Part shown: in pieces, positions 7,344 to 11,860 of the stretch | Position numbering within the stretch: the first letter of the stretch is position 1 | Layout of the letters: the number at the start of each line of letters is the position of its first letter | NCBI GenBank assembly: GCA_021513715.1 | Contig: CP084167.1 | Location: forward strand, 2,560,001 to 2,624,000 | From: Candidatus Heimdallarchaeum endolithica | GTDB lineage: Archaea; Asgardarchaeota; Heimdallarchaeia; Heimdallarchaeales; Heimdallarchaeaceae | Reading direction: 5' to 3' | Length of the DNA stretch: 64,000 nt | Notes under the pieces: generated by a model | Told to the model about the DNA's origin: nothing | Databases searched by the model: none | Seen by the model: only the letters and a program-made list of their open reading frames with translations | Program-made: the position numbers and the translations under genes

Positions 7344-8063
7344 GTGTTTAAACGTTCAAAACGCTCAAAACTTGAAGAAGCAAATGTACTTTTAGGAGAA
7401 GCAAAAGTTTTAGGTCAGCAAAAAAAATATCAAGAAGCTGTTGAAGCGATTGAAAAAGCAATAGTACTATTCACACATGAGAATGATAGACAAAAACTTG
7501 ATTTGTCTAAGGCATTACTTTATGAATTTAAAGCTGAGCAATCTATAAAGTCTAATCGTGCTTTAGAAGCTTCCAATTATCTTGGACGAGCTGGAGGCTT
7601 CTATATGCGTCTACATATGGTTAATGACTTGAATCGAGTATACAAAAAACAAGCAGACATTCTACTTATTTTGGCTAGACAAACCATGAAAGAAAAGCAT
7701 TTTATTGAAGCAGCATCTTATTTTGAGCAAGCTGCTATGGCTTATCAAAAATTAAAGAATAAAGAGATGGAACTCGACTGTAAAGCCAAATCTTATGTTT
7801 CTCGAGCTGCAGCAGAAAAAACAATATCTGGTAGAAAAGTTTTTCTTAGAAAAGCAGTGGAATTGATGAAGGAAACAGGAACAGATAATCCAATAATAAA
7901 AGGCCATTTAGCCTATTATAATGGGTTATTTATAAAAGATGAAAAGAAGGAAGAAGCTCTTCGTTATTTTAGTGAGGCATTACAAAATTATCAAAAAGCT
8001 GGAATGTCAAAAAGGGTAGAAGAAATAAAAAAGATGATTGATGATCTAGCTACAAACCTATAA
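7344..8063 (+). CDS. TPR/alpha-solenoid protein, alpha-SNAP-like
   Basis: Repeated helical units KYQEAVEAIEKAIVLF, ALEASNYLGRAGGFY, FIEAASYFEQAAMAY, KEEALRYFSEALQNY. TPR-like call is firm; the SNAP subfamily is tentative. Confidence 0.65.
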   Translation: MFKRSKRSKLEEANVLLGEAKVLGQQKKYQEAVEAIEKAIVLFTHENDRQKLDLSKALLYEFKAEQSIKSNRALEASNYLGRAGGFYMRLHMVNDLNRVYKKQADILLILARQTMKEKHFIEAASYFEQAAMAYQKLKNKEMELDCKAKSYVSRAAAEKTISGRKVFLRKAVELMKETGTDNPIIKGHLAYYNGLFIKDEKKEEALRYFSEALQNYQKAGMSKRVEEIKKMIDDLATNL

Positions 8064-8102
8064 TGTTCATTTCTTGCCCTTTTTTAGAAGTTATGCAGTT
8101 AT

Positions 8103-8696
8103 TTATTTAATAAATGGTTTTCTAAACTTCAAAACTTCTTCTTCACTTTGTATAGCTAGTCTCGCTGCATGAGAAAAAAGATTCTCGACATTTTCAGCTG
8201 ATAAAGCAGATGTTTCTATGTAATCAAAGTTATTTTCTTTAGCGTATTCTTCTGCTTTTTCTCTTTCTACAGTTCTTGCATTAGTTAAATCGCTCTTATT
8301 TCCACATAAAATAATGGGTATTTCAGAACATTTTTTCTTTATTTCACTAACCCAAAAAGGAACATCATCGAATGTTGCAGTTTTTGTAATATCATAAACT
8401 ACAATAGCGACTTTTGCTCCTAGAAAATATTTCTGTCTGACAAACCCAAAAATCTCTTGTGCTCCTGTATCCCATAAGCTAATTCTAACTTTAACATCAT
8501 CAGTTAGTATGTCTTTAGACAAATTCTCGTTTAATTCCTCTTTTGTTAAGGATAGACTTTTAGTTAACCAACTTACACCCATTGTTGGAATATATGAATA
8601 AGAAAAGGTGTTCATTGTATACCTTCTTGCTAATGAGGTTTTACCAACAAAAGCTGAACCAATTGTAATTATTTTATATAAATGCCGTTCTATCAT
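8103..8696 (-). CDS. Rab-like small GTPase
   Basis: G1 GSAFVGKTS, G2 YIPTMG, G3 WDTGAQE, G4 GNKSD, G5 ETSAL. Likely start is ATG 8696, just after the upstream stop (track ORF extends to 8759). Confidence 0.92.
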   Translation of the reverse strand: MIERHLYKIITIGSAFVGKTSLARRYTMNTFSYSYIPTMGVSWLTKSLSLTKEELNENLSKDILTDDVKVRISLWDTGAQEIFGFVRQKYFLGAKVAIVVYDITKTATFDDVPFWVSEIKKKCSEIPIILCGNKSDLTNARTVEREKAEEYAKENNFDYIETSALSAENVENLFSHAARLAIQSEEEVLKFRKPFIK

Positions 8697-8698
8697 TT

Positions 8699-9547
8699 TT
8701 ATCTCCAAAATATTTCTACTAATTTTCTTTCGATGTTTATACTGCTTAAACGCCTCCATTCATCAAGAATCAACGGTTTTGTGTTTTTATTAATTAATTC
8801 TCTAAATTGTTCAGGACTAAAGTATTTTCTGATGATATCTACTAATTCAGAAGTGAAATTAAGGAATATTTCTTTCATTTGGCTACAGTTTTCAATTTCT
8901 GTTATCTGTATTGAGTTTAACTCATCTTTTATAAAAAATCCTTCCTTATTAAAGAAAAATAATTTATCAATTTCCTTATAATCATTTATTAGTTTATTAA
9001 CATCGATTCTTAATAATTGGTTAATTTCTTCCTCGTTGGATTGCGATTTTGTAGCTTTTTTTATTCCTGTACATAAAGAGTTTATAATATTCTCAAATAT
9101 TTCTAATAAATTCCTGAACTCAATATCTTTCACATGATTTGATATAATCGAATTAACTTTGAAAACTTCAGAAATTACCATAGACGGTGATAAAGGTTTT
9201 TTTACTAGTTTAATTTCATCTAGGAAATTTTTAGCTGTTTCTTTATCATAAATATCAAATGAGTATAGAAAGAGATTCATTAAAAAAAATAATTGAGAAT
9301 ATGCGATTCCTTCCTTTTGCTCTTGAGAAATCAGTACAAATATAAAATCATACTTTTCTTCAATTAATACAGTAGTTTTCTTAAAGATCACTTCTCGTAA
9401 TTGACCTAGTTCTCTCTGTTCTCCCATTTTTATAAATTCTAATAGCCCTGAAAAATGCTCTGGTTTAAGAATTAAATTTTCACTATTGGGTGTGTCTGTA
9501 AAGATAGTGTCATAGTTATTTTTGTTTAGTATATAAAAATTAGCCAA
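8699..9547 (-). CDS. Hypothetical protein with putative N-terminal longin/profilin-fold domain
   Basis: FYILNK...FSGLLEF...GQLREVIF....VLIEE...FIFVLIS pattern resembles Asgard longin-like domains; helical C-terminal half; translationally coupled to the GTPase. Confidence 0.5.
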   Translation of the reverse strand: MANFYILNKNNYDTIFTDTPNSENLILKPEHFSGLLEFIKMGEQRELGQLREVIFKKTTVLIEEKYDFIFVLISQEQKEGIAYSQLFFLMNLFLYSFDIYDKETAKNFLDEIKLVKKPLSPSMVISEVFKVNSIISNHVKDIEFRNLLEIFENIINSLCTGIKKATKSQSNEEEINQLLRIDVNKLINDYKEIDKLFFFNKEGFFIKDELNSIQITEIENCSQMKEIFLNFTSELVDIIRKYFSPEQFRELINKNTKPLILDEWRRLSSINIERKLVEIFWR

Positions 9548-9670
9548 TTAGTACACCTTTCTAATATTAATTAGAAAATAAATTTAAACTTATTCCTTTA
9601 TCAGTTTCTGTACTAACTTGTCTGATTTTTGTATTTCTTTCATTTGTTTTAGAAGTATAAAAAAAGTGGA

Positions 9671-11860
9671 TTATGTAAATCCTATTCTTGGGCTAGTTGA
9701 TATTTGTGTAGTTTTCTTGAACCTTTCTGCGATTTTATCGTAATATTTGAGTACATCTGGGGTCACTGTGGGATGAATATTTTTCAGTGCTTCTTTAAAA
9801 TGTGCTGCTTTTACTTTTGTTGCATTGAAGTCCTCTCTGAGTGCTCTCATACCTGCTTCTCTACACAATGCTTCGATGTCACTTCCCACGAATCCATCTG
9901 TTACTTCTGCAAGTTCTTTAACATTAACATCTTCAGCTAAAGGCATATTTTCAGTATATATCTTGAATATTTTTTCTCTTCCTCTTTTGTTGGGTGGTTT
10001 TATGTATATTAGCCTATCAAATCTTCCTGGTCGTAGAAGAGCAGTATCCACCATGTCTGGTCTATTTGTTGCAGCTAAAACTACAATATCTTTTAGCTCT
10101 TCTAAACCATCCAATTCAGTGAGTAGTTGACTTATTACCCTTTCAGTAACATTACTGTCGCTTGACATGCCTCTTATAGGTGTTAGAGAGTCTATTTCGT
10201 CAAAAAATATGATTGATGGAGCAGCCATTCTTGCTTTACGAAATACCTCTCGTATAGCTTTTTCTGATTCTCCTACCCATTTAGATAATATTTCAGGACC
10301 TTTAACGCTAATGAAGTTCGCTTCGCTTTCTGTAGCTACTGCTCTCGCAATAAGTGTCTTCCCACATCCTGGGGGCCCATAAAGTAATATTCCTCTAGGA
10401 GGTTTGATTCCAATTTGTTTAAATGCTTCAGGATGTGTCAAAGGCCATTCTATAGCTTCTCTTATCTCTTCTATGACTTTATCTAGTCCTCCAACCTTAG
10501 AAAATGGAACATTGGGTGATTCGATAAATACTTCTCTCACTGCTGTTGGAGTTATTTCTTTTAGAGCGTTAATAAAATCTTCTTGCGTGACTTCTAATTT
10601 GTCTAATATTTCGACTGGGATTTTTTCTTCATTTAAGTCGATCTCAGGAAGGACTCTGCGTAGTGTTTTCATTGCACTTTCACGGCATAGGGCTTCAAGA
10701 TCTGCTCCAACATACCCATGGGTAACATCTGCTAGAGCTTTTAGTTCAACATTTTCAGCTAATGGCATTCCTCTAGAGTGAATTAAAAGGATCTCTTCTC
10801 TACTATCTCTATCTGGAACATGTATCTCGATTTCCCTATCAAATCTTCCTGGTCTTCTAAGCGCTGGGTCAATCGCATTTGGTCTATTTGTTGCTCCAAT
10901 AACAATTACTTGTCCTCTTGATACTAAACCATCCATTAAAGCTAAAAGTTGCGCAACAACTCTTCGTTCTACTTCACCAGTTACATCTTCTCTTTTTGGA
11001 GCAATAGCATCTAATTCATCGATGAAAATAATGCTTGGTGAGTTGTCTTCTGCATCTTTAAATATTCCACGTAATCTTTGTTCAGATTCACCATAAAATT
11101 TACTCATTATCTCAGGTCCATTTAATACAATAAAATGAGCTGCAGACTCATTAGCTACTGCTCTCGCAATAAGTGTTTTTCCACATCCTGGAGGACCATG
11201 TAGTAACACTCCTTTGGGTGGATCGATCCCCAGTTTTTCAAATAATTCTGGATGTTTTAAAGGGAGTTCAACCATTTCTCTTATTTTTTGAATTTCAGAA
11301 TGTAGTCCTCCTATGTCTTCATAGCTTATTCGGGGACCTCTTTTTTCTCCTTCAATAACAGGTTTTTCAGCTACCTTTAACTGAGTGCTCTCTGTAACTA
11401 CTACTATGCCTTGTGGGACTGTAGCAATAACGCTAAATGGTATTGCTCTACCTAAAATAGGAATTAAAACTGTATCTTTACGTGATAGTGGTTGTCCTAA
11501 TAATTTACGTTTAACGAAATTTTCAAAACTAAAATCAATATTAACTGACATTGATTCAGGAGCTAAAGTAACTTGTCTTGCTACACTTACTTGAGCTTTT
11601 TTTACTACTACTTTGTCTCCTAAGGAAACTCCTGCATTTCGTCTTATTACTCCATCCATCCTTACAATGTCTTTTTTTAGATCTTCAGGATAAGAAGGCC
11701 AAGCCACTGCTGTTGTTTTTCTTTTTCCTGTAATTTCTACTATATCTCCTGTTGACACTCCAATTTTAGACATTGCTACACTGTCTAAACGCACTTTTCC
11801 CCTGCCTACATCTCTCTGTTTAGCTTCAGCTACTCGTAGTACAATTTCCTTTTCGGCCAT
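9671..11860 (-). CDS. cdc48: CDC48/VCP/VAT type II AAA+ ATPase
   Basis: N domain (LRVAEA..RDVGRG) and two AAA modules, each with GPPGCGKT, Walker B (FIDELD / FFDEID) and SRH ([10 protein letters not shown] / [10 protein letters not shown]). Confidence 0.97.

What the first reader, a model, noticed from the sequence alone, without database searches (positions are those of the whole stretch)
7344..11860. CDC48 - longin-like - Rab-like GTPase run facing an alpha-SNAP-like gene: possible proto membrane-trafficking module
Seen: three co-directional genes (cdc48, longin-like, GTPase; the last two separated by 2 nt) converge on a TPR gene with A-A-x-x-F/Y-x-x-A-A repeats. Known: eukaryotic fusion uses a type II AAA+ ATPase (NSF/p97), alpha-SNAP, Rab GTPases and longin-domain GEFs or SNAREs. 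Inference: co-location may reflect an ancestral functional unit. The longin and SNAP assignments are pattern-based only, and cdc48 is 123 bp from the longin gene, so it may be transcribed separately.
Basis: inference. Interest (0 to 1): 0.7.

Follow-up and report, generated by a model that had tools for sequence, protein, structure and literature searches.

The report
Longin–Rab-like pair; CDC48 and TPR bystanders
In this Asgard archaeon, only two of the four flagged genes form a unit: a longin-fold protein and the Rab-like GTPase translated right behind it, a pairing also kept in a distant Asgard class and testable at the bench, while CDC48 and the SNAP-looking gene appear to be neighbours by gene-order history.

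Summary
All four genes are real (genome probably Ca. Heimdallarchaeum endolithica), but a four-gene trafficking module is not supported. The TPR gene faces the GTPase only in this genus. Its conserved neighbour is cofE (24/25 family loci; 6/6 in another order). It has no SNAP Pfam hit, folds no closer to Sec17 than to LGN-type TPRs, and lacks SNAP's NSF-activating C-terminus. CDC48 is canonical; a T-tract and TATA-like box separate it from the longin gene, and 0/20 orthologues outside the family have these neighbours. What holds is a two-gene unit: a longin-fold protein (Z 11.2 to Fuzzy) with an unassigned helical C-domain, 2-6 nt before a Rab-like GTPase, the longin's last codons carrying the GTPase's ribosome-binding site. 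The scan already reported this pair in Heimdallarchaeaceae several times. Added here: the same longin family overlaps a Rab-like GTPase gene in 20/20 Hermodarchaeia loci and duplicated with it. Complex prediction gave only weak support (0.57, best control 0.00). Most likely a dedicated regulator-GTPase pair; GEF versus GAP is open, and a trafficking role is unshown.

The parts
8699..9547 (-). Longin-domain protein (N-terminal longin fold, about residues 1-140) with a roughly 150-aa helical C-terminal domain of no assigned fold; member of a pan-Asgard family; candidate regulator of the GTPase
   Evidence: Pfam Fuz_longin_1 E=0.005, below cut-off; VIA Z 11.2, rmsd 2.7, 112 aligned to 7q3d_C of CPLANE; family profile's best PDB sequence hit is Mon1 (E=0.003); family search
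8103..8696 (-). Rab-like small GTPase, 197 aa; 15-aa interswitch insertion; G3 reads DTGAQ (Ala at the Ras Gly60 position); Phe at the Ras Gly13 position; no C-terminal cysteines
   Evidence: PF00071 E=1e-45; best PDB hit Thorarchaeota Rab 7ezb E=8e-33
8700..8706 (-). Shine-Dalgarno-like GGAGATA for the GTPase, written by the longin's conserved last codons (Trp-Arg-stop)
   Evidence: junctions; 16S 3' end GATCACCTCC; position
9579..9589 (-). TATA-like box (TTTAAA) upstream of the longin gene; SD-like AAAGGTG at 9554-9560
   Evidence: sequence; TTTTTAAG-type box at -55 to -58 from a fixed anchor in 13 of 20 stretches; function inferred
9658..9668 (-). T-tract right after the cdc48 stop, archaeal terminator-like
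   Evidence: T-tract in the first 45 nt in 19 of 20 stretches; function inferred
9671..11860 (-). Canonical archaeal CDC48/VAT type II AAA+ ATPase, one of two full-length copies in the genome; neighbour by family-level synteny
   Evidence: TIGR01243; both rings with intact Walker A/B and RPGRFD; second copy
7344..8063 (+). Single-copy TPR-type helical solenoid (11 helices), found only in Heimdallarchaeia among the genomes searched; not shown to be a SNAP
   Evidence: model pLDDT 95; fold searches; Pfam 4, 26, 99; distribution 105; synteny 13, 108
6503..7270 (+). cofE (F420-0:gamma-glutamyl ligase), the TPR gene's conserved neighbour
   Evidence: PF01996 E=3e-66; adjacency

Best explanation
The stretch is two separate things plus a passenger. 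(1) A two-gene unit with its own promoter-like box: a longin-domain protein and a Rab-like GTPase, translationally coupled. Most likely the longin protein, probably as a homodimer (inferred from longin and roadblock platforms being dimers), binds this one GTPase at its switch regions and sets its nucleotide state. My split given binding: GEF-like about 40%, GAP-like about 25%, scaffold or effector about 35%. The pair is a soluble signalling switch; no link to membrane fusion is shown. (2) cdc48 is the housekeeping unfoldase, separately transcribed, lying upstream by family gene order. (3) The TPR protein is a generic peptide- or protein-binding solenoid that travels with cofE and faces the GTPase only through a genus-level rearrangement. 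Shown: folds, motifs, spacing, synteny. Inferred: transcription units, binding, direction of regulation.
For: Pair: gap 2-6 nt in 19 family genomes plus two further contigs; SD inside the longin's last codons; both genes missing next to cdc48 and no orthologue of either found in G003 (91% complete); pair moved together about 5 kb from cdc48 with its TATA-like box in L265; ATGA overlap in 20/20 Hermodarchaeia loci from 16 genomes, with the same duplication split in both gene trees. Complex prediction: weak support, 0.57 against best control 0.00; the mark was reached by 58 of 80 solved complexes and 2 of 110 mismatches, but at 0.60 or under by only 7 solved complexes and both mismatches; runs agree in at least 53% of contacts, partner pLDDT at least 71; may be memory of Mon1-Ccz1-Ypt7-like structures. 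cdc48 apart: T-tract and TATA-like box; 0/20 orthologues in other Heimdallarchaeia families have a longin-family, Ras-like or this TPR gene nearby. TPR apart: co-directional and 2-3 genes from the GTPase in 17 other-genus stretches; faces cofE in L260; next to cofE in 6/6 loci of another order; not found in 19 Hermodarchaeia genomes that carry the pair.
Against: Most members of the longin family are not next to a GTPase (Thorarchaeia 0/3, Atabeyarchaeia 0/3, Loki family f14 0/9; 3 of 27 in f27, divergent and to an unrelated GTPase clade). The Heimdallarchaeaceae longins have lost the helix-1 Gly-x3-small motif found in 55/66 other members (0/8 here), the surface that binds the GTPase in Mon1 (PMC5216073). 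The GTPase has Y-I, not the Y-K/R that tri-longin GEFs need (PMC12383261). Monophyly of the coupled GTPases is neither shown nor rejected (p-AU 0.225). cdc48 does stay directly upstream in 20 of 22 family cases.
Confidence: 0.6

Rival explanations
1. The longin and GTPase genes are co-expressed for a shared process but do not bind directly; the longin protein acts with other partners through its helical C-domain.
For: Loss of the helix-1 motif in this family; many family members stand alone; longin is only 31% identical across genera against 57% for the GTPase; complex score is in the weak band.
Against: Tight coupling kept in two classes, co-duplication and apparent co-loss (13, 58, 60, 75); Asgard longin-GTPase fusions are described (PMC10933270).
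Confidence: 0.22
2. Three-gene unit: CDC48 acts on, or is regulated by, the longin-GTPase pair in Heimdallarchaeaceae (for example unfolding or extracting the complex).
For: cdc48 directly upstream in 19 family genomes and L263, surviving the rearrangement that moved CBS, FrhB and cofE in this genus (13, 81).
Against: Whole 15-20 kb blocks are syntenic in this family, so adjacency carries little weight; terminator-like and TATA-like elements between the genes; separated in L265 and G003; no link in 20 outside orthologues (66) or within the 1.5-4 kb flanks of the Hermodarchaeia loci.
Confidence: 0.1
3. One reading: an ancestral NSF/p97 + alpha-SNAP + Rab + longin membrane-trafficking module.
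For: 8 of 32 TPR homologues hit PF14938 at E<=0.01, best 4e-7, some above the cut-off; Sec17 and gamma-SNAP appear among fold matches (Z 11.1-11.4; 97); in order f5 the TPR gene is on the same contig as cdc48, 35-39 kb away.
Against: This protein has no SNAP hit at E<=1 (4); homologue hits stop at SNAP model position 165-167 of 282 and miss the C-terminal part needed to stimulate NSF (99; PMC2139964); PF14938 also rings in Bacillus, Deinococcus and Methanosarcina and in four other ORFs of this genome; TSK and LGN score higher (Z 15.3, 13.7; 97); convergence is genus-specific; CDC48 is not NSF-like; no lipidation site on the GTPase.
Confidence: 0.03

Closest known systems
Tri-longin RabGEFs Mon1-Ccz1/Ypt7, Fuzzy-Inturned/Rab23, BLOC-3 (PMC5216073, PMC12383261)
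   Same: N-terminal longin fold; these are the top structural and sequence matches; partner is a Rab-like GTPase.
   Different: One longin domain plus an unrelated helical domain, no second subunit gene; helix-1 motif lost in this family; GTPase lacks the switch-I Y-K/R motif and prenylation cysteines.
MglB-MglA roadblock/GTPase operons, and the Asgard roadblock-Rab-DENN operon (Liu et al., bioRxiv 10.1101/2020.10.19.343400)
   Same: Platform-domain gene directly upstream of its small GTPase. The family has such a roadblock + MglA-like pair a few genes away.
   Different: Longin rather than roadblock; GTPase is Rab-like, not MglA-like; no DENN gene.
Asgard longin-GTPase fusions and Thor-Rab (Tran et al. 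2024, PMC10933270)
   Same: Same parts; best PDB hit of the GTPase is Thor-Rab.
   Different: Here two coupled genes. That paper notes MK-D1 GTPases are generally not in operons with longin genes, which makes partners hard to match.
alpha-/gamma-SNAP (Sec17) with NSF (Sec18)
   Same: All-helical TPR-like hairpin array; some homologues match the N-terminal half of PF14938.
   Different: 239 aa against about 290; no match to the C-terminal half; no conserved penultimate leucine; the ATPase next door is a canonical CDC48.
Archaeal Cdc48/VAT (TIGR01243)
   Same: Full membership: N-domain, two intact AAA rings.
   Different: None found; C-terminus ends G-F/Y-T (HbYX-like).

Membership tests
alpha-SNAP/Sec17 | Pfam PF14938 above cut-off | tested here: not met
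   No hit at E<=1 for this protein; not among the 4 genome hits. 8/32 homologues hit weakly.
alpha-SNAP/Sec17 | C-terminal NSF-stimulating part with conserved penultimate Leu (L294; PMC2139964) | tested here: not met
   Homologue hits end at model position 165-167 of 282; penultimate residue varies across 32 C-termini.
alpha-SNAP/Sec17 | Fold closer to SNAPs than to other TPR arrays | tested here: inconclusive
   Sec17 Z 11.1-11.4 (rmsd 5.5-7.8, 182-193 aligned), below TSK 15.3 and LGN 13.7; all near the range common for helical repeats.
alpha-SNAP/Sec17 | Binds SNARE complex and AAA ATPase | not tested
Longin domain | Five-stranded sheet with helix 1 on one face and two C-terminal helices | tested here: met
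   Secondary structure; Z 11.2, rmsd 2.7, 112 aligned; top rows nearly all longin/roadblock.
Tri-longin RabGEF system | Three longin domains per subunit, heterodimer of two subunits | tested here: not met
   282 aa, one longin plus helical domain; single full-length copy in the genome.
Tri-longin RabGEF system | Substrate switch-I Y-K/R motif | tested here: not met
   Y35-I36 here; Y-I or Y-V in nearly all coupled GTPases.
Tri-longin RabGEF system | GEF activity | not testable with these tools
   Needs an exchange assay.
Ras/Rab-like small GTPase | G1, G2 Thr, G4 NKxD, G5 SA motifs | tested here: met
Ras/Rab-like small GTPase | G3 DxxG | tested here: not met
   DTGAQ in G000, G001 and L263; DTGGQ in the other family members read.
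Eukaryotic Rab | C-terminal prenylation cysteines | tested here: not met
   No C-terminal Cys in any family member.
Archaeal CDC48/VAT | TIGR01243 above cut-off; two intact AAA rings | tested here: met
   1086.7 against 802.65 bits; motifs.

The most novel reading that the evidence does not exclude
The longin + helical-domain protein and its coupled Rab-like GTPase descend from one pair already present deep in Asgard history (kept coupled in Heimdallarchaeaceae and Hermodarchaeia, adjacent in one Asgardarchaeia genome), and the longin protein is a homodimeric exchange factor: a prokaryotic working model of the longin-dimer RabGEFs (Mon1-Ccz1, TRAPP core).
Probability: 0.17. Interest if true: 0.75.

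Novelty: new variant of a known kind. Interest (0 to 1): 0.38.

Why it matters
Tran et al. 2024 (PMC10933270) state that matching Asgard small GTPases to regulators is hard because the genes are rarely in operons. This locus gives a matched longin/Rab-like pair in two classes, with natural controls (paralogous pairs in Hermodarchaeia, DTGAQ against DTGGQ orthologues, motif-bearing against motif-less longins), so the question of whether Asgard longins act as GEFs or GAPs can be tested directly. It also removes a recurring false lead: the SNAP-like gene beside CDC48 is not evidence of a proto-fusion machine.

Tried and rejected
Sigma-70 promoter and hairpin terminator scan: below chance and not suited to archaea. 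PF14938 as a SNAP test: too unspecific. SNAPs absent from the top 50 of the wide VIA search; the tool warns that absence excludes nothing. TPR profile against PDB sequences: kinesin light chain best, gamma-SNAP E=1.6. Fold of the longin protein's C-domain: no usable Atlas hit, best TM 0.42; not folded alone (both jobs used), so it is unassigned, not shown new. Divergent longin/GTPase neighbours in family f27: GTPases sit on a far long branch, treated as chance. AU test of one clade for coupled GTPases: inconclusive. Direct profile comparison of Heimdall longins to one Hermod sequence: weak (E=0.0003, C-domain only); homology rests on profile A4, which held no Hermod sequence and matches them full length at about 1e-30. 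Literature searches for Asgard alpha-SNAP/NSF, Heimdall SNAP+Cdc48 and Asgard Cdc48 cofactors found nothing relevant; the library lacks most subscription papers. The direction of the rearrangement (this genus derived or ancestral) was not determined.
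Full report
Source. The window lies in a single 3,326,783-base contig. Its same-genus relative has a 3,081,793-base contig whose longin and TPR orthologues are named Ca. Heimdallarchaeum aukensis. Wu et al. 2022 (PMC8813620) report two circular Heimdallarchaeum genomes of 3.32 and 3.08 Mbp, so this is most likely Ca. H. endolithica (inference).

Observation. The four ORFs and their spacing are as described: TPR 7344-8063 (+), GTPase 8103-8696 (-), longin-like 8699-9547 (-), cdc48 9671-11860 (-). CDC48 passes TIGR01243 and has intact Walker A/B and arginine-finger motifs in both rings; a second full-length CDC48 lies elsewhere. 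The GTPase is Ras-family, closest in the PDB to Thorarchaeota Rab, then Rab5B, Rab35 and Rab11. It is one of about 21 in the genome.

The longin call is right. An AlphaFold model (pLDDT 73, pTM 0.51) matches longin and roadblock domains in nearly all top rows: Z 11.2, rmsd 2.7, 112 aligned to chain C of CPLANE, then AP-3 sigma, BLOC-3 and Mon1. The remaining 150 residues are helical and unassigned. A broadened profile shows that longin + this helical domain is a pan-Asgard family with full-length members in Loki, Thor, Hermod, Atabey, Borr and Asgardarchaeia genomes. Within Heimdallarchaeia full-length members were found only in Heimdallarchaeaceae.

The SNAP call is not supported. This protein has no PF14938 hit. 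Eight of 32 homologues hit it weakly, and those examined match only up to model position 165-167 of 282. The C-terminal end with Leu294, which alpha-SNAP needs to stimulate NSF (PMC2139964), has no counterpart, and the penultimate residue varies. PF14938 also rings in three control prokaryotes and four other ORFs of this genome. A confident model (pLDDT 95) scores Z 11.1-11.4 to Sec17 and gamma-SNAP but 15.3 to TSK and 13.7 to LGN, and its Atlas neighbours are generic bacterial TPRs. A distant kinship to the N-terminal half of SNAPs is not excluded; membership is not shown.

Synteny separates the four genes. In 19 family genomes the order cdc48, longin, GTPase is kept, but so is most of the surrounding 15-20 kb. 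In 17 stretches from the other genera the order continues CBS, FrhB, cofE, TPR on the same strand; TPR faces the GTPase only in the two genomes of this genus. In L260 it faces cofE. TPR is next to cofE in 24 of 25 family stretches and directly upstream of cofE in 6 of 6 loci from another order, where it is 35-39 kb from cdc48. Twenty cdc48 orthologues from other Heimdallarchaeia families have no longin-family, Ras-like or TPR-family neighbour within up to 6 kb. Inside the family, G003 has cdc48 joined straight to the CBS gene, and no orthologue of either pair gene was found (91% complete). In L265 the pair sits about 5 kb from cdc48, behind a different gene, with its upstream TATA-like box.

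Expression signals agree. A T-tract follows the cdc48 stop in 19 of 20 stretches and a TTTTTAAG-type box sits at a near-fixed distance upstream of the longin gene in 13 of 20; this genus has TTTAAA at 9579-9589. The longin-GTPase gap is 2-6 nt, and the longin's near-invariant last residues Trp-Arg are encoded by TGGAG(A/G), the Shine-Dalgarno sequence for the GTPase, matching the 16S end GATCACCTCC. These are sequence inferences, not measured transcripts.

The pair extends beyond this family. In Hermodarchaeia (named) all 20 full-length longin genes from 16 genomes overlap a Rab-like GTPase gene by ATGA. Four genomes hold two copies of the pair, and both gene trees show the same split. An Asgardarchaeia genome has the two genes convergent and overlapping, and an unnamed assembly has them co-directional 209 nt apart. 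The Thor, Atabey and most Loki copies examined have no such neighbour. The coupled GTPases group together with only modest support (83/84) and the AU test neither shows nor rejects one clade (p 0.225), so common origin and independent recruitment both remain open.

Mechanism. By analogy with Mon1-Ccz1 and TRAPP, where a longin dimer binds the GTPase on its helix-1 face (PMC5216073), the longin protein most likely binds its coupled GTPase and controls its nucleotide state. The complex prediction gave weak support: 0.57 against best control 0.00. That mark was reached by 58 of 80 solved complexes and 2 of 110 mismatches, but at 0.60 or under by only 7 solved complexes and both mismatches; runs agree in at least 53% of contacts, partner pLDDT is at least 71, and the pass may reflect likeness to solved longin-Rab complexes. 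It cannot be a tri-longin-type GEF in the strict sense: the GTPase has Y-I where those substrates need Y-K/R (PMC12383261), and the Heimdallarchaeaceae longins have lost the helix-1 glycine motif (0/8 against 55/66). The GTPase is itself odd: a 15-residue interswitch insertion and Phe at the Ras Gly13 position throughout the family, and Ala for the G3 glycine in this genus and L263. H-Ras G60A favours the inactive state and hydrolyses poorly (PMC4867591), so this copy may switch slowly or differently (inference). It has no prenylation cysteines, and nothing here ties the pair to membranes.

Verdict. Real genes, ordinary CDC48, generic TPR, and a real longin/Rab-like gene pair. Roadblock or longin genes beside or fused to small GTPases are a known Asgard theme (PMC10933270; bioRxiv 10.1101/2020.10.19.343400). 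I found no paper on this family, but earlier reports of this scan describe the pair in Heimdallarchaeaceae. New variant of a known kind; interest 0.38.

Noticed in passing
L050:7460-17502, L058:9045-12370, L054:8301-9326 (genomes G022, G007, G018): The 3' part of the GTPase gene is duplicated (74-81% nucleotide identity), with up to about 9 kb of foreign genes between the copies; several other assemblies break at this spot. Possible insertion hot spot.
   Followed up: partly
window 6503-8063; L269-L274: The TPR gene stays next to cofE across two orders although order and orientation change; a functional link to F420 maturation is untested.
   Followed up: partly
L042:18900-19915 and equivalents; own genome C1:2534826-2535763: A roadblock gene directly upstream of an MglA-like GTPase, conserved in the family a few genes from cdc48; about 35 kb away in this genome.
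   Followed up: no
L043:3900-5286 and equivalents; L241-L243, L251-L254: A small (about 90 aa) gene near the cdc48 start, usually divergent from it, is cdc48's most conserved neighbour across Heimdallarchaeia, but not in this genus.
   Followed up: no
L094:91-6550 (Ca. Borrarchaeum): Two tandem longin-family genes lie 2.5 kb upstream of three tandem Rab-like GTPase genes; a possible heterodimer version of the pair.
   Followed up: no
window 5447-7270: Stand-alone FrhB-like protein with N-terminal 4Fe-4S domain, 3 nt before cofE.
   Followed up: no
window 15718-23702: Conserved operon: PrsW-like membrane protein with zinc ribbons, DUF4129, DUF4350, MoxR AAA, DUF58 (Pfam labels from orthologues).
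   Followed up: no
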